A stretch of 64,000 bases of DNA. It comes from Microbotryum violaceum (taxonomy: Eukaryota). The stretch covers positions 868,001 through 932,000 of the forward strand of contig CDLV01000013.1 in the NCBI GenBank assembly GCA_001244265.2, written 5' to 3'. Below, piece by piece: positions 3,411 to 58,041 of this stretch. The notes beneath the pieces were generated by a model, which searched no databases, was not told where the DNA came from, and worked only from the letters and a program-made list of their open reading frames with translations. A program made the position numbers and the translations under genes. The stretch's first letter is position 1; each line of letters opens with the position of its first letter.

Positions 3411-4978
3411 TCAGGTCTTCTTCCCTTCGATCGCGTCCTGGATTAATCGCCACAGCACGGAAAACATCAACCCTTGCAAACCGTTCGCCAAGATCCTTGT
3501 CCTCAAACCTCGCCCGAACAAGCCCTTCCACCCTTCGGCGGACCAAATCTTTCTCGCGGCTCTGCGGTACCCGATCGAGTTATGGTTCACTTGACGGTAC
3601 GTTTTGACGACTCGCAACGAATTGGAGATGGTGTCCGAGACGACCGAGGCTGAGAACCCGATGAAAGCCTGGCGCGAGAGGTTCGCCAACGTCGAATGCG
3701 CAAGGGGAAGATTTTTGGAGAGGAAGTTGTAGGTTGCAAACCAGGGGAAAGAACCGACGAAGGAAGCGGCGGCGGTGGCGAATGCTCCGGCCCACAAGGT
3801 CGAAAGGCCGTACATTTTGACGCGTTGCTTCAAGACGACGAGTGCTCGTGAAGAACCTTCGGTTTGCATCGTCGTCTGCGAATGATGTCATAGTGTTGGT
3901 CATGATCAGTAAAGATGACACCGCTTGAAGACGTGAAACCTGACCTTGAGGGTGTCGATTGGAACCAAAATCATCCTGAAGAGAGCGCCTGCGACCGAAG
4001 CGAAGGCAGTCTGCAGTGGACTTGGGAGTTTCGATAACCAAGGGTTGGATTCTAGTAATGCCAGAATACCTGTATTGGCTGCCGTGTCACCGAAGCGAGC
4101 GATCGGACCTTGGACCAAGGCAGGACCGAGGCCTGCGTAGAAGCGCTTGAAGCCGCCCGAGGTACGTAGTGCCGAGATGGACGAGGTCATGGATCCTCCG
4201 TAGCGGTATTGATAGTTCATCGTCGTCCGCAAGGGCATCAACGTGAGACTGAAAGAGGGTGAACACATAAGTTGATTAGTAATTTGATGTAGTTGGTCGA
4301 GTGAAAATTGTGGCTCCGAGACCGCCGACCAGGGAGACGTACACTTGGACGATCATGGCCAATGCTCCACTTAGTCCCTGTTGAATTGAATCGACGTCGG
4401 ATCAGAATACAAATGACCCATACCCGGAGCAGCTTGACTGATGGACTGACTCCTCCACCGGCTTTGGCGAGTGCGCGCTTCCAGTCAAAGCGGCCCCCAC
4501 CTTGCTTGAACGCCTGCACGATGCACACCACCACCACCACCGCGACGACGGTCCAGAACGCGAGCCACTTGTACAACGACTTGCGTTTCTGCTCCGGCGT
4601 CAACACAGGTTCGTCCGCTTCGTCATCATCGTCGTCAGCGTCGTTGTTCGCAGTCAGAGGTGCTGGCTCGCGATCGCCGGTCGTTCGATCACCGTCGGTC
4701 GGCAGCGGAGTCGCCGTGGCTGCAGTGCTTGACGACGAACGTTGTTGGCGCTGCGAAGCGAGCAAGGGTTCCCTTTCATTTCCTTTGTTGACGACTGCCG
4801 GTATGGCAGGTTTGGGTGCCGGCATCGAGTCGTGCAGGTCCGGGTATGGTCTCCAGTGACAGTGTCCCGAGCTAACCATGCGGTAAGACCGAGCCCAACC
4901 GCGAGGTGCGTCAAGCGCGTCAGGGGGCGCCGTGCGGATCGGGCCGGCCGGCAAGCTCGGACTCGACTCGGAGGTCAT
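3411..4978 (-). CDS. Mitochondrial carrier family (SLC25) protein, multi-exon, with an N-terminal extension; start at 4978 or 4825
   Basis: Carrier-signature-like segments PLRTTMNYQ, PIDTLK and SLRVVKTYRQ, plus GFKRFYAGL and EGWKGLFGRGLRTRIL. Confidence 0.85.
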
Positions 4979-5260
4979 GTCGAAATACCAGTCCTGCCCA
5001 GCCGAACGTCTGAAGCGGTGCAATTTTTGGGGATACAGACAAGGTTTAAATGAAGACTCTCCCCTTTTTCACACTTTTACAAAACTACGTTGCAGCACTT
5101 TGCTCCGTCGTCGGTCACCCCGGCCGATCGCTCACACTTCGCTCACCCACCGGCCGAATGTCTGGCTCGTGCGAGCTTCGCAAGAGCTGCCCCTCACTCG
5201 CGCTGGCCCGAGCTCACCCACACGCGCCTTCGCCGCACACCACGGCTCCCACCACCCAAC

Positions 5261-7387
5261 ATGAGCAAGTTCAAGCACGAGTCCGAAGCGAGCAAGAAGA
5301 ACAGCGGGAAACGCACTCGATCGAAGCAAGAGGATGAGGCCGTAGTCACTAAATCCCAGCAAGGCGAGTGCGTCGCCTTGCCCGAACCAGCAACGACGGC
5401 GATGGAGGAGCACGTCAACGAGTCTACTGCAGCGCCCAGCCAAGACGACGCCGGTTCAGACTCGGGCGCGGAACAATCTGCTCAGGAACGCAAAGCGAGG
5501 AAACCAAGACCGGACAGCGACAAGCCCAAAGTACGCCTTCCGATCGACGACGACGACGAGACGCCAGCGCTCTCGCACAAGGACAAGCGATTGGCCAAGC
5601 GACGCAAGCTCGCCGGGATACCCGAACGAGAACCCGCACCAGCATCTGCTTCCATGATTCACCCTTCTCGTAAAGCAGTCGTCGACCTTTCTGGTGACGG
5701 TACCGTGACAACCGCCTTCGGCAATACTCCGCCCAAGTCGGCCCACGGTGTTTGGGTCGGCAATATGAACTACGCGACCACAAGCAAAGATCTCATACAA
5801 TGGTTCAGCAGTCGTGGTCTGACCGAAGTAACGAGGATCAACATGCCAAGCGGGAAACGAGCCCACGAGAACAACAGGGGGTCAGTCTCACCCCATTGCC
5901 TTTTCAGTTTGAATAATTTTTCATGCTCATTCCTCCCCGTCTCCACAGTTTCGCCTATGTCGATTTTCCCACCGCGACCGATGTCGAAATTGCAGTCGGG
6001 GTCTCTGAACAGCATCTCGACGGTCGCAAGCTGTTGATTAAGAGCTCATCCGACTTTACCGGTCGACCGACACCTGCCGCCGCTGCACTAACGATGGCGT
6101 CGATCCCTCCTTCGGCACTTGTCGATTCTGCTCCGAAGTACCCCTTTGAAGACGATGGGGAGGACGACGATCACCACGCAGACGAAGGCGAAGACGACGA
6201 GGACGATCGGGCCAAGCCTCCCGTCGTCACTGTCGGCGCGACAGGGAACCAACCTCGACCCGTGACAGGTGTCGCCCAACCGACCCTGAACCGTACCGCT
6301 CGCAAGATCCTTGATCGACAAAAGAACCCACCCGGACCGACCTTGTTCTTGGGCAACCTCGGTTTCGAAACGACGGTCGAGGATATTCGGGAAATGTTTG
6401 ATGCGCATCAGAAGGCGATGGCGAATTGGGCACCGAGGGATAAGCAAGAGAAGAAGAAGCAAGAGAAGGAGAAGAGGAGGGCCAAGAAGCGCGAGACCGC
6501 GGAAGGGGATGAGCAAGCGAGTGGCAGCGATGAAGATTCGAGTGACGAGGAGGAGAACGATTCGAGCGACGAAGAGAAGAACGAGAAGGGCGAGGACGGT
6601 GAAGATGAGGCACGGAAGCCGAAACGTGTGCGAGCGAAAAAGTTTAAGCCCGAGAAGAAGGAACCTCTAGACCTGTCGAAAGCCCAGGATGCGGGCATAC
6701 GCAAGGTCCGCTTGGGAACGTTCGAGGATACGGGAAAATGCAAGGGGTGAGTTTTGCTCGTGGGCTGTCATTATCGTGCTATGCGCTCGCTCTCCGCGCC
6801 CTGACGCCATTGTCTTTCATATTACTAGATGGGCTTTTGTCGATTTCCATCTTCCCGAACAATGCACACGAGCACTGCTCAACATCCGCAACCACTCGTT
6901 GGCCGGCCGAACACTGAACGTCGAGTACGCCTCTTCCGATGCCGTCCGACGAGGAGCCATCGGGACGCGAGGAGCGATCCGAGGCGGGGGTGGGGGTCGA
7001 GGTGGATCGTCTCGCGGGCGAGGTGCTCATGGTGGGAGAGGGGACGATAGCCGGGGGCGAGGTCTGCGATCGACAGGGGACGGCGAGGGTGGGAGACCTT
7101 GGAACGACTCGGACACACGAGCGGCTGCTGGAGATGGAAGTTGGTACGAGAAGCCCGCCGCTGCCACCGAATACGGTGGCCCATCTGGGAGAGGCAACTT
7201 TGGGGCCGGTCGTGGTGGAAGCAGAGGAGGTGCGCGGGGAGGCCGGGGTGGACCGAGTGCTGGAGCAGGTGGAGCGTCGAGAGGAGGCCATGAGAAGCGA
7301 GCCAAGCCCGGAGCTGCTTTGGCGAGTGCGCAGCGTGCGAGTGAAGCCATCTTGCCTAGTACTGGACGCAAGATCGTTTTCGAGTAG
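5261..7387 (+). CDS. Two-RRM, RGG-tailed RNA-binding protein (Nop13-like, probably nucleolar)
   Basis: RNP2 motifs GVWVGNM and TLFLGNL; RNP1 motifs (RG)FAYVDF and KG-WAFVDF formed across introns; acidic/basic linker; RGG-rich tail ending GRKIVFE. Confidence 0.85.
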
Positions 7388-47617: not shown

Positions 47618-48718
47618 ATGAGCTTATCAACTGAGAGCAACTCCGACACCAGCGCCTCCGAGTCCGAGTCCGCGCGAGCTTTCAAACGCATTGCTTCCGC
47701 AGGCTGTCGCGGACCGTGCGCGACTAGCCCCCGATCGGAGTATAACGATGCGCTTGCTTGCCCCGGAGTACAGCCCGCAGCCTTCCTCTTCGAACGCATA
47801 ACCGCATGGTGAGGCAATGCAGAGCTCAGACCTGTCCACAGAGTGCTTGCTTCTAATCCGCTCAGTGTTCAAACTCACGTGCAGACCGCTACCTGGCCAC
47901 GACCCGTGGCATCTCTTGAGTGCTCTCTTGTGGTGGCCTATCAACTACGCGAGCCCACCATCCTCGAGCCCCTTGCGTTGCGCCGGCAACTCGCCCAGGA
48001 TGGCTTCTTGTACCTTCGCTCGTTCCTGCCGTGTGAATTGGTGACGATCGCACGCCGTACGCTCGCGCTAGACCTCGCTTCCAATGGGTTCCTCGACACG
48101 AGTACGTGCCTGGACCTTACCGAGGACCCCTTGTACATCAATCCCGAATCGATCAAAGACAAGAGAACACCCGAATTGCTCAATCGAACGGACTTGCACC
48201 GGCATCCAGACGTCCTCTCTGTACTGGAACACGACTCTCTTCGGCGCCTGATGAGGTCACTTCTGGTCACTCCCAGTTCCGACACGGTCGGACTCGCAAC
48301 GCCGCCGAGTACAACATGTCTACCCGAATTGCGAACCCACCCTTACAAATGGCTGCGAGCTGTAGGCCCCTCGCTCTACACGGGTCTGCACGTCGATCGA
48401 ACCTATTTTCCCACCTCGTCCTTCCCGACTCTCTTAACGGCTTGGATCCCCCTCGACAATATCCCGACAGAACTAGGATCACTCGTTATCGCTCCCGACA
48501 TTTATCTCCCACCGATGAAGGTTGGCGGAGACGGAACCAAGTCGGGGTGGATCCATGAAAAGTACCTCGAGGATCAGACGATACGGTGGGAGTCGGCCGA
48601 CATGAACAGAGGCGATATCGTCATCATTGATCCGGCGAGATGCGTTCATATGAGCAGTCGAAATGTCGCGAGCCCACCGACCTGGAGGATTAGCGCCGAT
48701 ACAAGATGGTGGATCTAG
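47618..48718 (+). CDS. PhyH-like Fe(II)/2-oxoglutarate dioxygenase
   Basis: DGFLYLRSFL, KWLRAV, TGLHVD (HxD), LTAWIPL.....GSL, GDIVI....HMS and RISADTRW; intron predicted at 47809-47865. Confidence 0.8.
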
Positions 48719-51074: not shown

Positions 51075-51156
51075 GCTGTAGCGAGTGCTGCGGGCGGGAC
51101 CTCGAGCCTCGAGGAGGGTGGTATCTGGTGGTATTGAGCCATCGCCGGCCCGGCTA

Positions 51157-53676
51157 AGGACCCCAGAAAGTCCAGCCTGAGGCGCGTAGGTAAAATCCGC
51201 CAGAATCCCCGATTTTGGACCTCATTTGTCCACCGATTTTTGGAATTTTCGCCCAAAAAGGTCCCCAAAATGTCCAGTCCATCTACGCGCCTCAAAAAAT
51301 AGCTCTAGATTCGCTTCAAATGCTCTTAAACATCTTCAAAAATCGCGAAAACGCCGTCCGGACGTTTTTCGCTCGGGCCGAATCGGCAGAGCCCGCGCGC
51401 GCGTCAGCCGTTTCGGTTCTGCTTCGCCGAGAGCTCCTCACCTGCACTTACTGCCTGCCTCTTTGCCTATGATTTAACGTGGCCATAGTATACATGTAAC
51501 GTACAACGAGAGGTAAGATCGATTGCAGTCACTCTGCGAAGCAGTAAGCTAGCTACCGTGAGATGTACGAACCAAGTCTAATCGACAGTTGTTCTTCTCC
51601 TATGTTGCTGGCACAACTGGCAGGTATGATGCCTCGTTTCAATACAAAGCAGACAAGAGAGCCGATTTTCAAAGGCGTAGCTGACGTGACGTTTCCGTCG
51701 ATCGACCCAAACGGTGGGATCTTGGCGAACGCCGTGTATTGCCTTGCTCGCAATTGCATCCGTACCTGGGCAAGAATGAACATTATTGATGAGCACTCTC
51801 TGGGCCATATGTGCAGAGCACAATTGCAGCTCACTTCTTTACGTCTGTCTTCGATGTACCCTATGTTTTCCGTCTCGTTTGCGGTCGAAAAGCGACTGAA
51901 GGTCGCTTGTCCTGTCCAACGAATGGACCTCGCAACTCCTGACACGGCTTCGAGACGGGCTGCACCCATTGAATGCACTAAGCCTCGGAGGACACTGGAA
52001 TGCATTTCACCGTGCTTGGACAATTTTGCTTTTGATGTGGGATCGGAAACTTGGGAAGTCGAGGTGGTGGCGCCGTGCCTTCCCTTGAGTAGGACAGCTC
52101 TGAGATGGAAACATTGATGTGCCCGACGGCGCTGGATCAAGCTTTTCAGATCAAGCGCAAGCTGACGAGATTCGTAACGCAGAAGGGATGGGAGCCGAAT
52201 AATCTGAGCCTGTGAAAGAATGCTGGTTCCATTTAGTGTTGCTACACGAAACCAATTGCTTAGATGAACCTACACTACCCGGCAAGCTATCATTTGCTGT
52301 CACAATGACGTCGAGCAGGAAGCGTTCCTCTGCTTGAGCATCGACCTCGTCATAGGCCTGCTGAACGGCAAGCCTAGAATCGGAAGAGATGAGTTATCAG
52401 CTCAGAGGAGGCTGGTACAGGTCTCATTGCACTCAAATTATGGTGCAGTATCATTGTTAAGGCCAAGAGCAGCTAAAGAGCGAACAGCGTGTTCAACTGA
52501 CTTCCGCTCTTTCGGCTCCCGACGAGACCTTTCTCCAAGCCACGTTGTCCCTAGGAAAAGCACGAAAAATAATCCCAATCAACCACGCCATCGAACAGAC
52601 GAACAATTTGGCTGCTTACCAACGAAATCGAGCAGCGTGTGCAAGAACGCACTACACCCGAGGATCATTGAGGGGCTATATTGCTCCTCAATGAGCAGTG
52701 GCGGCAGCACCTCCAGAGCCTTAACGATGAGAGGCTGACTTTCGATGTCGACACCCAGATAATATTTCCATCTACTTTTGGCTACTGATAACGATCGAAC
52801 GCATGCGCTCGGTGTAATCTATATGCCGCCAGATGCTTTCGACACCGAAAGGCAGCCGGTGCCCAGCGATAGCAATTGACCGGTAACCTTGCTTACGCGC
52901 CGCAGTAATTGCTCCACGATCCTTGAATTTGTCCGTCCAAGCATCGAGCGGCCTAGGAAGAGTATCAAACTCGAGAGGCTCGTCTGTCGACCATGAAAGC
53001 TGTATCTGGGTTATCTGGGTGTCTGCAATGGGTTGTCGAAGCGGAAGGCGAGAAGCTCAAGACACCCTCACGTCCTAGAAGGGTGCCATTCGTTCGAAAT
53101 CATCGTCAAGGAGCTCGATATCCAAGTTGTCTAAATACATCTCGTCGAAGTTGGTTGAAGCGAGAGCCTAACCTAGGATGTTGATGACGATGATGGCACA
53201 GACGACGCGACGCGGCGGGGGAGGCAAGAGACGGCGCACTAAGACGAGACGGCTCGTTCAACCAGCCAAGAGGGCTATAATTGCCAAATCGAACCATTAG
53301 AGCCGTTGTTATGAATTCGGTACAGGCCATAGTGTTTCGCGCGCGCTCCGCACGTTCTTGAGGGTCGGCAAACTCTGGCGTACCAAGTCGAATGTGGCTG
53401 AAATGGGCCCAGATTTGTCCACTGGCACCTACGGGCCTAGGACCCACCCACACGGCGCACCCTGATTTGTCCACCCCCGACTACGCGCCTCTGATGTGCA
53501 TAAAATACAATCTGTCGTTCTTGACCACACCCAGACTAAAAGCAAGTCGTAACTAGAGCTCGGCAGTTCTAGCTACTCAGAGGCTACTTATAAGGCTGTT
53601 CTGTAAAGCATCCCCTTACACCCACAATTTGTCCAGTCGGGCACTACGCGCCTCAGGCCGGGCTTTCGTGGGTCCT
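51157..53676. mobile_element. Non-autonomous/decayed cut-and-paste DNA transposon, 33-bp TIRs, 8-bp TSD
   Basis: Left end AGGACCCCAGAAAGTCCAGCCTGAGGCGCGTAG (51157-51189) versus the reverse complement of 53644-53676, AGGACCCACGAAAGCCCGGCCTGAGGCGCGTAG: 29/33 identical. CCCGGCTA lies at both 51149-51156 and 53677-53684. Confidence 0.92.
51553..53160 (-). pseudogene. Decayed spliced ORF inside the transposon
   Basis: Protein-like segments (AGHRLPFGVESIWRHI, LHTLLDFV|GTTWL, IDGNVTSATPLKIGSLVCF) separated by GT-AG signals, stops and a frameshift. Confidence 0.55.
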
Positions 53677-53822
53677 CCCGGCTACGCCCGGCTTCTTGCC
53701 TTTACTAATCGATCGGACAGACCGAGGTCCAAGTCGCGCGGTTTCGTTATTTTTGCTCTTGTGCTTTCGCCCCACATTTGATGCCGCAGATGCTCCTGTC
53801 GGAACCAGGCAGTAACAAAAGT

Positions 53823-56043
53823 ATGAGCAGAAGCGACACTCGAATCGACCACGACGCGTATCATGAGCTCAACCTGCACCTTCAGCAGCAACAACACGAG
53901 CACGACTACGTGAACGGCCTTGGGCACGAGCACAGGCACGCCGGGCACGACGAGCCCGAGCGCGTGCTCGTCCGACAGCGAGCGAGTACGTCGACCAAGA
54001 ATCGCCCGAGATCGCCCAGCCCGTATCGAGCGCACCCGGAGCAATCCTCGACCGAATTGTGAGTCCGGTCCTGTTCCTCCATGTGTAACACCCCCGAATG
54101 TTAAGCACGTATGCCTACCGATGTATCGTCTGAACGGGGATAAGAGCGATCGACGGCGCCCGCGAGCGAGAGGGGGCTCGGACCACTGCAGGCGCACGTC
54201 AGCAGAGAGGCGATCGAGTGGGCTATTTGGGCTGACTCTCTCATCGTACATCGGACTATGCACTCGATATTTTGCCTCATCAGTTTGAAGAGGTCAGTAC
54301 CTTTTCAATCCTTCTCGTCAGCGGCATGGCTGCGTGTCATGAGCAGCTGCTGTGACTGACAACTGATGACGATCTCTATAACACGCACCCACCCATTTTG
54401 GATTTGGCGCGGCGGCAATTCCTCGGCTTGGCGGTCTCCATTGCGGTTCCCGACGACCCGCATCCCTCGTTCCTCGACCCGCGTCCCTCGGCGGTGACCC
54501 GTGACTCGTACTACCGCCTGCTCGGTAACCGACCTGCCTCGCCTCGCCTGCCGTTACCGACCATAATGTTCCAACTCGCAGCTTCTGGCAACATAGCATC
54601 GACATTGCAGAGACTGTTCACGACGACTTCAAACACCAGGCACTGCCCCTCGCCCGAATCAAAAAAGTCATGAAGTCGGATCCCGAAGTCAAGGCTAGTC
54701 GCAACACACAGCCGTAGCTTTAGAACTTGAGAGACCTGACAGCTGACCTATCATTGTGGCCTTTGGACGCACAAAGATGATCTCTTCCGAAGTGACAGTA
54801 TTGCTCGAGAAAGCTTGCCAAAGTCAGTCAAATGAATGCGGGTGTAATAGCTCACATCCAACGGTGGCGCGCAGTAGAGAGTAGAGAGGGCGGACACCAC
54901 CGCCAGGTGAGCCTGCTGAGTTCTGACCCTTCCCGTATCTTTCGCTCGACAGTTTTCATCCAAGAAATCACCAATCGGGCCCACATGGTGTCCCTTGCTT
55001 CTCGTCGCCGCACCTTGGCCAGGTCAGACGTCGCCGAAGCGGTCGCCAAATCCGACACGTTCGATTTCCTCGTCGACGTCGTGCCGCGCGACGAGTCGAC
55101 CCCCCTCCCCCCCTCGGCATCTGCGTCTGTTTCGGCTCCAAACTTGGGTCAAGATGGTACAGAAGAATCCGAAGCACCCAAAGCTTCAACTAGCCGCACG
55201 ACGCTCGACAGCTTCACGTCGAGTCTGGATGTTGGTGCCGCCGAAGATGCCGTCGAGGATCCCGAAGATGAAGCTGGCCTAGGCGAGGATGAGCTCGCTG
55301 AGGGGACTCTCGGTGTATCAACGACGAATGCGCGTAAGCGACCCTCACGTGCCACTGGCAAACCGCGAGGTCGACCAAAGAAGAGACCGGCGACAGATAC
55401 GGGGCCTTCACATAGCGAGCGGGAAGCTGAGCACGAACGAGCTCGGCTAGTTGCTGAGGAGCAGGCCAGGCATGCTGCAGCAATGGGGCACTTGCAAGGC
55501 AAAGCAGCCGAAGCGAGCAACCCAGCACCGACCCCGGCCCCTCAAATGCCTCCTCCCAATCCGACAAGCCACCATTCGGGTCACAATAGCGGTATGTATG
55601 GCTTGTCTGCGCAAAGTATGCAGGCACCACCCCACCTGATGGGCCTGCCAATGGGGATGGGATTGGGCATGGGTATGGGCATGCCGATCTCGATGCCGAT
55701 GGGTCTGCCCACATCAGCCGCTGGGTCACACGAGGAATATCAGAGGTGGATGCTCGAGCAGTTTCAAAGGAGCGGGGCGCACAATGCTCATGTGAGTTGG
55801 TGTTTCAAGTTATGTCAGACCACGTCCGAATTGCTCGAGCTGAATGACGGCCCAACTGCGCTACCTTGACCAGCCCTTCATGGCCCCTGGATCCATGCCT
55901 TGGCCCAACCCATTCACTTACGATGTAGGTCAAACCGTACCTGCGAAGCTGACGAGCAGCTCCAAGCTGAACCAGACCGCTCTCTCTCTTCCCCTTGCCC
56001 ATAGTCGAGCCACACCTTTGCGCACACTGCCCAACGCGAGTAA
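53823..56043 (+). CDS. HAP5: NF-YC/Hap5-like histone-fold CCAAT-binding subunit
   Basis: Spliced: EFLKSFWQHSIDIAE...DFKHQALPLARIKKVMKSDPEVK-MISSE...EKACQIFIQEIT.RA...RRRTL.RSDVAEAVAKSDTFDFLVDVVPR. Confidence 0.85.
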
Positions 56044-56207: not shown

Positions 56208-58041
56208 TCAAGCCTCGGCCAAGTTCACATCGGCAAACTTGGAGTACTGCTTCCTCGACTTGACCTTGTCGACGTCCGCTTGGGTAATGGACTTGCACTG
56301 CGAAGTGTTGCGGCGGGTGAGCCACCTGCCCAACTCGTCATATAGGTTGCGGATCAGTGCTTACCTCGGCGGCGTGGTTGTAGCCGAGGCGCGCTCGACC
56401 ATCAGCGCCCCCTTCCTTGTAGAAGCCGGGTCGCTTGAAGATGGTGACCACACACGCGCCACCTGATCGTCAAGGATGACGCGTAATCAATTCGCACAAT
56501 CTGAACTCTCTTGCAGCCGAGGAAAACAAACTCACCGAGACCCAAATTGTGAGCGAGAGCATAGCACTCCTTGCCTTGCTTTTCCGCAGCTCCCGGTACA
56601 CAGCGAGGATCTTGCATCGGTCCCGCCCATCCACGGAGCTGATTGACGAGGTAGAAAGCCATACCCAACCCAGTCGCGCCAAGGGGATGTCCCTTGGATT
56701 CGAGACCACCGGAGGGATTGATGACGAACTTGCCGCCATAGGTGTTGTCGCCCGAACGAGCCAGTTCGTGAGCTTTACCGGAGGCGGTCAACTGCAGCGC
56801 GTCGTAGACGAGCAACTCGTTCGCGGCGAAACAGTCGTGCAGTTCGATGATGGAGAGGTCATCGGCTTTGATACCGGCTTGCTTGTAGCACTTCTGCGCC
56901 GCAATACGGGTCATGTCGGCGCCGGTCAGCTCGATGGAGGAGCGGTCGTTGAAGAGGCGAGGGCTGTCCGTCGTCATAGCTTGAGCGACCATCTCGATTG
57001 CTTGATTCTGCAGGTTGTGCTTCTTGACGAAGTCCTCGGAGACGACGATCGCGCAAGCGGCACCGTCTGAAGTGGGGCAGCACATACCACGCGTCATCTG
57101 TACTCAATATATATTGACAGAGTGAGGCTCAGACCTCCGCTTCGGCAGCGGATGAAGATCAGGCACCAAGGACTCACGTTGTCAGTGATCTTCTTGTCGT
57201 TATAAACCTCGTCAGTGGTCATGACGTTGCGGAACTGCGAGTACGGGTTCACTGCGGAGTGTTTATGGTTCTTGGCTGCGATGCTGGCCACATCTCTCCA
57301 TGTCGAGCCATACTTTTGGCAGTACTCCTCGGCACCGTTGCCGAAGATCTGAGCAGCAAAGGGTCCTGATCCGACGCCGACGACGTCGTTCATCAACTCG
57401 ATCGTCTTTTCGAGAGGGGGCGCACGATCACTGAAGGTGGTGGTCAACGAGCCAGGGGCCATCTTCTCGAAGCCGATGGCCATGATGCAATCGGCGACGC
57501 CGGCCTCGACCATTTGACGGGCGAGGAAGAGTGCCGAAGAACCCGTCGAGCAATTGTTGTTAACGTTGACGATAGGGATTGCCGTCATACCGAGAGCATA
57601 AAGGGCACGCTGACCGCAAGTCGAATCCTTGTGTGGGAGTAAAGGGAGCCCAATCAGACTCTGTAACGAAGCAATTATTGGTGCAGGGAGGGGTAGGGTC
57701 CGGGCTCGGCCTGCAGCGTGTGCAATTTACTCTGGGTGGCCACTGGCGAAGAGAGACTCACGCCATAGACGTATCCAGCATAGGCTTGTTCGACCTCGTC
57801 GTAATTGATTCCGGCGTCGAGGAGAGCCTTGGTACTGAAGCGCAACAAATGGAGAGTCGGTCAGCAAGACAATCCGCGCCTCGGCAACCAGTCTCTTGGC
57901 GGGGCCCAAAGCGGGGGCGGGGTTTGATTCGTGGCCTACTCACGCAGCTTCGACGGCCAGTTCGGGATAGTCGATGAGGTTTCGGGGCTTCATGAACGCC
58001 GTCATGCCGACACCAGCGATGAAAGTCTTCCGGGGAGCCAT
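56208..58041 (-). CDS. SCP2/SCPx-type thiolase
   Basis: FIAGVGMTAFMKP, IPIVNVNNNCSTGSSA, KNHKHSAVNPYSQF, CCPTSDGAA, IELHDCFAANE, INPSGGLESKGHPLGATGL, HNLGLGG. Confidence 0.94.

What the first reader, a model, noticed from the sequence alone, without database searches (positions are those of the whole stretch)
51149..53684. Boundary-complete DNA transposon with AGG...CCT termini and an 8-bp TSD, family unassigned
Seen: 33-bp terminal inverted repeats (4 mismatches) exactly bounded by a perfect 8-bp direct repeat CCCGGCTA, defining a 2,520-bp insertion not evident from the ORF track. Established: TSDs of about 8 bp occur in hAT, P, Merlin and Zisupton-type elements; hAT ends usually begin (C/T)AG and P ends CA, and AGG fits neither. 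Inference: this is an internally deleted copy of a larger, possibly poorly described basidiomycete DNA transposon family.
Basis: partly seen in the sequence, partly recalled or inferred. Interest (0 to 1): 0.8.

Follow-up and report, generated by a model that had tools for sequence, protein, structure and literature searches.

The report
Deleted fungal P-type transposon copy
This is a real but crippled copy of a cut-and-paste jumping gene whose full-length form makes an enzyme shaped like the fruit-fly P element transposase with a SUMO-type protease attached; relatives with the same unusual ends are common in basidiomycete fungi, where such elements had been reported as rare.

Summary
Confirmed: 33-bp TIRs (4 mismatches), perfect 8-bp TSD, 2,520 bp. 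The family is multicopy (126 TIR matches, control 0); 33 of 49 TIR pairs have a perfect 8-bp TSD and none another length from 4 to 12. The window copy is one of ten 2.3-2.5-kb copies with the same two deletions of a 6.5-kb element, and also carries a 130-bp solo-LTR fragment. The long element encodes an Ulp1-like protease fused to a DDE transposase with D-D-DxxH-E motifs; a model of a close relative matches Drosophila P transposase (Z 26.4; next 11.3). So the family is assignable: P-type. Non-canonical features hold lineage-wide: AGGACCCC ends in 19 of 26 distant metagenome families (control 1), Ulp1 in 19 of 28 long homologues, no THAP hit. No empty site was seen in 4 runs. Rust P elements are already in Repbase (2011), and a rust protein with the same motifs lies in that paper's supplement, so the lineage is probably catalogued; its breadth, ends and protease I did not find described in 9 searches. 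The scan found this lineage before on other copies in this genome (e1-7146590, e1-7176048).

The parts
51149..51156 (.). Left copy of the 8-bp target-site duplication (CCCGGCTA)
   Evidence: 8 bp is the family rule (33 of 49 pairs)
51157..51189 (+). Terminal inverted repeat at the 3' end of the transposase gene (starts AGGACCCC)
51157..51465 (-). Terminal 309-bp block, matches positions 6186-6494 of the full-length element; holds subterminal repeats at 51225-51232 and 51283-51294
51465..51469 (.). Junction of the small (about 337 bp) internal deletion, shared with 9 other 2.3-2.4-kb copies
   Evidence: loose ends of reads from undeleted copies at 51465/51469
51460..52375 (-). Decayed C-terminal exons of the transposase gene (residues about 1047-1268 of relative P0001, with stops)
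   Evidence: L001 row; window = L001 + 49656
52530..52531 (.). Junction of the large (about 3.76 kb) deletion that removed the Ulp1 domain and the whole catalytic core
   Evidence: none of 7 motifs found in the window copy
52531..53140 (-). Decayed N-terminal coding region upstream of the lost Ulp1 domain (ATG at 53140-53138 is my reading), with stops
53414..53490 (+). Subterminal repeats at the gene-5' end (TTTGTCCA at 53414 and 53466; CTACGCGCCT-like at 53429 and 53481; another TTTGTCCA at 53628); candidate transposase-binding sites (inference)
53491..53620 (+). 130-bp fragment of an unrelated 143-bp solo-LTR-like repeat (TGTAAGG...CCTTACA) replacing 23 bp found in other copies; the junction lies in a short microhomology at 53482-53490
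   Evidence: tables 5, 5c; 41 matches; 5-bp TSD in 3 of the 5 copies inspected
53644..53676 (-). Terminal inverted repeat at the 5' end of the transposase gene (ends GGGTCCT)
53677..53684 (.). Right copy of the 8-bp target-site duplication

Best explanation
The 2,520-bp element is a non-autonomous deletion derivative of a 6.5-kb cut-and-paste DNA transposon of a divergent, basidiomycete branch of the P superfamily. Shown: TIR/TSD anatomy, copy number, the two deletions, the long partner, its domain order (N-terminal region, Ulp1-like protease, cysteine clusters, P-like HTH region, split RNase H core with a helical insertion, C-terminal helices) and the P-like fold. Inferred: a transposase made by a full-length copy (this family, or a sister family with the same first 21-28 terminal bases) bound the TIRs and subterminal repeats, excised the deleted element and inserted it with an 8-bp staggered cut into GC-rich, weakly palindromic DNA, here a 223-bp gap between two divergent start codons. 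The deleted form itself jumped repeatedly after the deletions, since copies with the same breakpoints have different TSDs. A solo LTR later landed in the subterminal region of this copy and was partly deleted, probably immobilising it. Most likely role of the protease (inference, about 50%): it removes SUMO from the transposase or from silencing chromatin at the element. Most likely cofactor (inference, about 55%): the insertion domain still binds a purine nucleotide that positions the 3' end, here a T rather than the G of Drosophila P.
For: TSD census; shared breakpoints in 10 of 10 copies of 2.34-2.52 kb compared, 92-95% identical to the window copy against about 90% for full-length copies; long copies with perfect 8-bp TSDs, e.g. 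L033, L034, L040. AlphaFold model of relative P0002 (86% identical to the catalytic exon; pLDDT 77): Foldseek best hits 6pe2/6p5a E 2.5e-13 and 4e-13, next Hermes 2.1e-4; VIA-align Z 26.4, rmsd 3.8 A, 394 aligned, next ISCth4 Z 11.3, rmsd 6.4, 270 aligned. ESM Atlas: nearest named clusters are P/THAP9 families PF21787-9. [quoted passage not shown] PF12017 (P HTH) hits 4 of 28 homologues, 1 above its cut-off. Ulp1: profile hits yeast Ulp1 at 1.5e-17; H 51/54, D 45/53, Q 49/53, C 48/50. Target bias: C at position 3 or G at 6 in 39 of 72 half-sites against a background of 0.24, as in the P core GTCCGGAC (PMC2577343 passages).
Against: No sequence-level hit to the solved P transposase, by single sequence or profile; identity in the structural match is 12-14%; PF21787-9 hit none of the 45 proteins scanned. 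Ends are AGG..CCT, not CAT..ATG, and the flanks do not complement the TIR ends as they do for Drosophila P. No THAP domain. Spacing between the catalytic motifs is longer (122 and 65 residues against 73 and 33). No empty site in 4 runs. 13 of 49 TIR pairs lack a TSD. 9 of 10 long family-1 copies are visibly damaged in the protease-to-catalytic exons and the tenth has a conserved His replaced, so no active source is shown. In the Microbotryum copies the protease triad Asp reads Asn, so activity there is uncertain.
Confidence: 0.85

Rival explanations
1. The lineage is a sister group of P that deserves its own superfamily rank: same fold and 8-bp TSD, but its own termini (AGGACCCC), its own insertion-domain motif (DRQDD), a protease in place of THAP and possibly a different cofactor chemistry.
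For: Termini conserved across distant relatives (19 of 26 families, control 1 of 26); no sequence or Pfam bridge to the P catalytic domains; 12-14% identity to P; by motif spacing the P GTP-contact positions K400/V401 correspond to D382/D383 here (spacing only, not a residue-level superposition).
Against: The fold match covers HTH, core and insertion domain together and stands 15 Z units above the next family; a stripe-rust protein with the same motif set lies in the genome from which Repbase curators described P-1_PSt (PMC3164196 passages and supplement file 8), suggesting that curators already file this lineage under P.
Confidence: 0.1
2. It is a hAT, Merlin, MULE or Zisupton/KDZ element (all can give about 8-bp TSDs; Zisupton carrying an Ulp1 domain is recalled, not from a call).
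For: 8-bp TSD fits hAT and Zisupton (PMC12730594 parts 1-2); Hermes and ISCth4 appear among the fold hits.
Against: Hermes Z 9.0 (rmsd 7.5, 307 aligned) and ISCth4 Z 11.3 against P Z 26.4; no hAT, MULE, IS1595 or KDZ Pfam family among the hits for 45 proteins. No solved KDZ or Merlin structure appeared in the lists, so those two are not excluded by fold alone.
Confidence: 0.03
3. The structure is conserved host sequence or a chance repeat, not an insertion.
For: No empty allele in 4 public runs; the left junction is bridged in all 3 DNA runs.
Against: 126 TIR matches, 33 perfect and different 8-bp TSDs, read depth over the element about 28-78 times the flanks in run X1.
Confidence: 0.01

Closest known systems
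Drosophila P element transposase (PDB 6p5a/6pe2) and the P superfamily (P, 1360, Galileo, THAP9)
   Same: About 30-bp TIRs plus subterminal repeats, 8-bp TSD, GC-rich weakly palindromic target, internally deleted non-autonomous copies, D-D-D(2)H-E order, HTH + split RNase H + helical insertion fold (Z 26.4, rmsd 3.8 A, 394 aligned).
   Different: AGG..CCT ends (3' terminal T, not G); no THAP domain; N-terminal Ulp1-like protease; about 6.5 kb and roughly 1,400-1,900 aa against 2.9 kb and 751 aa; DRQDD motif in the insertion domain; 12-14% identity.
Rust-fungus P elements in Repbase (P-1_PSt, P-1_MLP, P-2_MLP, P-N1_MLP, P-N2_MLP; PMC3164196)
   Same: Same subphylum as the host genus; 8-bp TSD; autonomous and non-autonomous forms; a predicted stripe-rust protein in that paper's supplement (PST130_8219_1) shows the same DxxH, DKQDD and E-H-x-F-G motifs.
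   Different: Unknown: I could not see the Repbase entries, so their termini, domains and identity to this family are untested, and nothing I saw links PST130_8219_1 to P-1_PSt.
Ulp1/SENP cysteine proteases (Pfam PF02902; yeast Ulp1, PDB 1euv)
   Same: Profile match E 1.5e-17; H-D-C triad and oxyanion Gln conserved in most homologues.
   Different: Fused in frame to a transposase; triad Asp is Asn in the Microbotryum copies; deleted from the window copy. Ulp1 capture by other DNA transposons is known (search listings for MULE and Ginger papers; details recalled).
hAT (Hermes), MULE/IS256 (ISCth4), Transib/RAG1
   Same: RNase H core with a helical insertion domain.
   Different: Much weaker structural match (Z 8.7-11.3, rmsd 5.3-7.5 A).

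Membership tests
P superfamily | TIR element with 7-8-bp (rarely 9-bp) TSD | tested here: met
   33 of 49 pairs perfect 8 bp, 0 at 4-7 or 9-12 bp; 5 of 9 complete metagenome elements with flanks
P superfamily | DDE triad with D(2)H motif between second D and E | tested here: met
   D139, D261, D326-x-x-H329, E507 conserved at 95-100%; first two Asp end predicted strands and the Glu lies in a helix
P superfamily | P-type fold: HTH, split RNase H, GBD-like insertion | tested here: met
   Z 26.4, rmsd 3.8 A, 394 aligned, model 41-539 on 6p5a 138-566; Foldseek E 2.5e-13; predicted model of a relative, not of the window copy
P superfamily | Detectable sequence similarity to P transposase profiles (PF12017, PF21787-9) | tested here: inconclusive
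   PF12017 in 4 of 28 homologues, 1 above cut-off; none in the 17 proteins; PF21787-9 none; PF21788 found nothing in the genome but also nothing in its controls
P superfamily | 5'-CA...TG-3' termini (CAT/ATG for Drosophila P; superfamily-wide rule recalled) | tested here: not met
   AGG...CCT in this genome and AGGACCCC in 19 of 26 distant families
P superfamily (animal members) | N-terminal THAP domain | tested here: not met
   No THAP hit in 45 proteins; THAP is stated to be absent from fungi (PMC7776569 passage), so this separates animal P only
P superfamily | GTP cofactor requirement and 17-nt staggered donor cleavage | not testable with these tools
   By motif spacing only, P D528/S409/D444/N447 correspond to E504 (109/115), S391 (96/120), D423 (108/120), Q426 (116/120); K400/V401 to D382/D383
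Repbase rust P elements (P-1_PSt, P-1_MLP group) | Transposase homology to the catalogued entries | not testable with these tools
   Repbase is not available; indirect hint only
hAT | hAT transposase fold and dimerisation domain; (C/T)AG termini (recalled) | tested here: not met
   Termini AGG; Hermes Z 9.0, rmsd 7.5, 307 aligned, against P 26.4; no hAT Pfam hit
Zisupton/KDZ, Merlin | KDZ or IS1595-type transposase domain | tested here: inconclusive
   No such Pfam hit; no structure of these families among the fold hits, so not excluded by fold

The most novel reading that the evidence does not exclude
A basidiomycete-wide clade of P-related transposons, not yet defined in print, with a fixed AGGACCCC terminal signature, an in-frame SUMO-type protease in place of THAP and a remodelled nucleotide pocket facing a terminal T. 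It would be the main form of P-like element in fungi, missed by Pfam-based surveys (11 copies with a domain in the 2017 survey), distinct enough for its own group name, using its protease against SUMO-dependent silencing and showing that the GTP-terminal G contact of P transposition is not universal.
Probability: 0.25. Interest if true: 0.72.

Novelty: new variant of a known kind. Interest (0 to 1): 0.48.

Why it matters
P elements are the only transposases known to use GTP, which pairs with the terminal G of the element (PMC7776569 section 8). A widespread fungal branch that ends in T and has a changed pocket is a natural test of how general that chemistry is. A published survey counted only 11 fungal P copies with a recognisable domain (PMC5751038 Table 1); this lineage gives 517 protein clusters at 50% identity, with named members in Microbotryomycetes, Tremellomycetes and Agaricomycetes, all labelled hypothetical, so a sizeable part of basidiomycete 'unknown' repeats and orphan genes may be this one group. 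The AGGACCCC end plus 8-bp TSD is a simple rule to annotate it. The window copy itself is a dead derivative of modest interest, apart from sitting in a short divergent promoter.

Tried and rejected
Alternative boundaries (GG ends with a 9-bp TSD, or hAT-like TAAGG ends): the flanks do not allow them and no length other than 8 gave a perfect repeat. Pfam on the window's two longest ORF pieces: nothing. Sequence and profile searches of PDB for the catalytic core: nothing but Ulp1-type proteases. PF21788 in the genome: nothing, and nothing in the controls either, so uninformative. Empty site: none in 4 laid runs, all contigs, 4 of 24 listed runs; one may be the source sample. Expression: no RNA holder listed; the one possible RNA run gave only scattered short pieces on the flanks. 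Complementation of the target by the TIR ends, as in Drosophila P: not seen. A loose terminal motif gave a high control (9 of 30 and 6 of 26) and was dropped for the strict 8-mer. Literature: 9 searches listed no paper describing an Ulp1-fused or AGG-ended fungal P element; Repbase, Dfam and subscription journals are outside the library. Left flanking ORF: no Pfam hit.

Full report
OBSERVATION. The arms 51157-51189 and 53644-53676 are 33 nt with 4 mismatches and are bounded directly by CCCGGCTA at 51149-51156 and 53677-53684; the element is 2,520 bp. No other structure of this kind lies in the window. Short subterminal repeats (CTACGCGCCT-like, TTTGTCCA) cluster within about 260 bp of both ends.

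COPIES. A search of the window's own genome (33 Mb, 20 contigs) gave 122 matching pieces with only 40 of 250 candidates scored; a TIR pattern matched 126 times, the reversed control 0 times. From the loci I fetched (not all copies) I paired 49 left and right ends: 33 have a perfect 8-bp direct repeat, 3 have 7 of 8, 13 have none; no pair has a perfect repeat of 4-7 or 9-12 bp; mismatched pairs reach 7 of 8 in 0 of 2,352 cases. The size classes are about 265 bp (5 of 5 with TSD), about 1.38 kb, about 2.35-2.5 kb and about 6.5 kb. The 36 targets are 69% GC against 54% in flanks 100 bp away, with C at position 3 or G at position 6 in 39 of 72 half-sites (background 0.24); other positions are weak and I did not correct for multiple tests.

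ANATOMY OF THE WINDOW COPY. Against a 6,494-bp copy, the window element covers positions 1-56, 80-1013, 4774-5848 and 6186-6494; the gene runs on the window's minus strand. All 9 other copies of 2.34-2.42 kb that I compared share both breakpoints, are 92-95% identical to the window copy (full-length copies about 90%), and 6 of these 9 have their own perfect TSD. A 2,689-bp copy has only the first deletion. So a deleted subfamily arose and then transposed in trans (inference). The large deletion removes the protease and all catalytic motifs; what is left are decayed N- and C-terminal exons. Unique to this copy, 130 bp at 53491-53620 replace 23 bp seen in other copies. They are the 3' part of a 143-bp repeat with TGTAAGG...CCTTACA ends, at least 40 other copies and a 5-bp TSD in 3 of 5 inspected: a solo LTR by its anatomy (the terminal signature is recalled). 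Its first bases are lost at a microhomology with the element's subterminal repeat, so LTR insertion followed by a short deletion is the simplest history (inference).

THE LONG PARTNER. The 6.5-kb copies carry one multi-exon gene. Pfam finds Peptidase_C48 (Ulp1) in 3 of 11 ORF pieces, 1 above cut-off, and nothing else of note. The closest named proteins are hypothetical proteins of Microbotryum (89% and 86%), then Mycena (31-35%). Of 10 long family-1 copies, 9 have stops, frameshifts or lost motifs in the protease-to-catalytic exons; L036 is open there but has the His after the catalytic Glu replaced and lacks a TSD. A second family (about 63% amino-acid identity in the catalytic exon) and a third (about 53%) share the first 21-28 terminal bases; family 2 also has 8-bp TSDs. 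No active source is shown.

WHAT THE ENZYME IS. P0002 finds 517 clusters at E<=0.001 among 50%-identity representatives. Of 30 looked up, 18 carry an organism name, all basidiomycetes (Microbotryum, Phenoliferia, Naganishia and Agaricomycetes); 12 have none. In 121 aligned homologues the near-invariant residues are D139, D261, D326-x-x-H329, D379-R-Q-D-D and E507-H-x-F, the order described for P transposases (PMC3698922, passages). The ESM Atlas puts P/THAP9 clusters nearest among named ones. An AlphaFold model from an 85-sequence alignment (121 were too many; pLDDT 77) matches Drosophila P transposase at Foldseek E 2.5e-13, next Hermes 2.1e-4, and at Z 26.4, rmsd 3.8 A, 394 aligned, next ISCth4 Z 11.3. 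Against this: identity is 12-14%, no sequence search reaches the solved P transposase, and only PF12017 gives weak hits (4 of 28). Ulp1 is found in 19 of 28 long homologues, 14 above cut-off, and the profile hits yeast Ulp1 at 1.5e-17; the triad is conserved across the family, with Asn for Asp in the Microbotryum copies.

THE ENDS ARE A LINEAGE TRAIT. I dropped 34 that were too short on both sides; the 45 kept fall into 27 DNA clusters, 26 testable. AGGACCCC stands at the expected distance and orientation in 15 of 30 left and 22 of 30 right ends (controls 0 and 1), or 19 of 26 clusters (control 1). Of 9 complete elements with flanks, 5 have a perfect 8-bp TSD; lengths are 6.2-7.3 kb. Their transposases are about 25-39% identical to P0002 in the best segment and closest to Agaricomycete proteins; the hosts are not named, so 'fungal' is inferred. 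One family begins AGGACAC and one AGGCCC.

THE SITE. The insertion lies 75 bp upstream of an ATG on the minus strand (ORF without Pfam hit) and 140 bp upstream of an ATG on the plus strand; downstream exons there encode an NF-YC/HapE homologue (that this ATG starts that gene is my reading). The empty interval would be about 223 bp, a likely shared promoter, in line with the promoter preference of P (PMC7776569, passage). In 4 laid runs of four organism labels no contig skips the element; the left junction is bridged in 3 of 3 DNA runs and the right in 2 of 3. The insertion is therefore shared among close strains or species; the empty allele was not seen.

MECHANISM. Shown: ends, TSD, deletions, domain content, fold. 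From established knowledge (PMC7776569 section 8): P transposase pairs the ends, cuts them out, and joins them to target strands 8 bp apart; GTP in the insertion domain bonds to the terminal G. Inferred: the same path here, with a non-THAP DNA-binding part (cysteine clusters lie before the HTH region) on the subterminal repeats. By spacing from conserved motifs, four of the P GTP-contact positions have conserved counterparts (E504, S391, D423, Q426) while K400/V401 fall on D382/D383; this is not a superposition. The 3' terminal base is T, which also offers an imino hydrogen (general chemistry), so GTP use is plausible but open. The protease most likely counters SUMO-linked repression or controls the transposase (inference only).

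WHAT IS KNOWN. P elements with 8-bp TSDs were reported from rust fungi and deposited in Repbase (PMC3164196: passages, section 13, two supplement searches; file 8 was cut when stored). That supplement holds a predicted protein with the same motif set, so the Repbase rust P entries probably belong to this lineage; I could not check. A 2017 survey lists P as confined to Pucciniales and Allomyces in Repbase and found 11 copies with a domain (PMC5751038: passages and section 15). Two Microbotryum papers give TIR elements only as a class in the passages I saw (PMC4469406, PMC10502011); their supplements, unread, may name families. Kojima 2025 (PMC12730594: parts 1-3 of 7 and a term search) covers other fungal groups and does not contain 'Ulp1' or 'P element'. 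Also seen as passages: PMC2577343, PMC3698922, PMC5718144, PMC5753468 and bioRxiv 2025.06.16.659975 (supplements closed). Nine searches listed no description of an Ulp1-fused or AGG-ended fungal P element. Two earlier notes of this scan on other copies reached the same reading; I had stated it before the look-up and tested it here.

VERDICT. Real element, correctly bounded, correctly read as a deleted copy. It works like a P element (85%); strict membership holds on TSD, catalytic motifs and fold, and fails on canonical termini and THAP, so I file it as a divergent P-type variant rather than a canonical P. Interest 0.48: the copy is dead, the lineage is probably catalogued from rusts, but its breadth, terminal signature and protease fusion appear undescribed and give a direct test of the GTP-terminal base mechanism.

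Noticed in passing
window 53491-53620; L122-L126: A very short (143-bp) solo-LTR-like repeat family with TGTAAGG...CCTTACA ends, 5-bp TSD and at least 40 copies, 98-99% alike among the five best; its parent retroelement was not looked for.
   Followed up: partly
L087-L091 (e.g. G000:C13:426721-426985): 263-276-bp MITEs with the same TIRs; 5 of 5 have perfect 8-bp TSDs. A 1.37-1.39-kb class also exists (5 of 6 with TSD).
   Followed up: partly
L101-L119 (family 2), L096/L098/L099/L120 (families at about 53%): Two or more sister families with 53-64% transposase identity keep the first 21-28 terminal bases, so cross-mobilisation is possible; family 2 has T-rich subterminal tracts.
   Followed up: partly
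L017 (G000:C1:3196122-3199063) and L016 (G000:C16): Rearranged copies: one has the same end type at both termini in inverted orientation, another has a TIR directly abutting a second TIR, as expected from local re-insertion or aberrant transposition.
   Followed up: no
L005, L008, L023, L027, L116 flanks: The same short flanking sequence (around CCCATGGTACGGCG) recurs beside several different insertions, suggesting repeated insertion into one spot of another repeat.
   Followed up: no
G000:C2, C1, C17: Copies look concentrated on contigs C2, C1 and the small C17 in the listed matches; not tested against contig length or recombination status.
   Followed up: no
L100 2670-4943 (G000:C17 near 130,200-132,400): An unrelated 2.0-2.3-kb structure with long GC-rich inverted repeats (over 100 bp) beside a fragment of this family.
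   Followed up: no
L092 and L093: About 4-5 kb of unrelated sequence nested inside deleted copies while the outer TSD stays intact; LTR-type ORFs interrupt L042 and L043.
   Followed up: no
window 51074-49670 (-) and 53824-55869 (+): Divergent flanking genes: an ORF whose start resembles an F-box motif (recalled; no Pfam hit) and an NF-YC/HapE CCAAT-binding subunit (PDB E 1e-11).
   Followed up: partly
window 47813-48718 (+) and 56402-57726 (-): A PhyH-family dioxygenase and a thiolase-family gene lie nearby (Pfam).
   Followed up: no
L033/L032 protease-to-core linker: A tandem 'TDDDC' peptide repeat varies from 1 to 5 units between copies.
   Followed up: no
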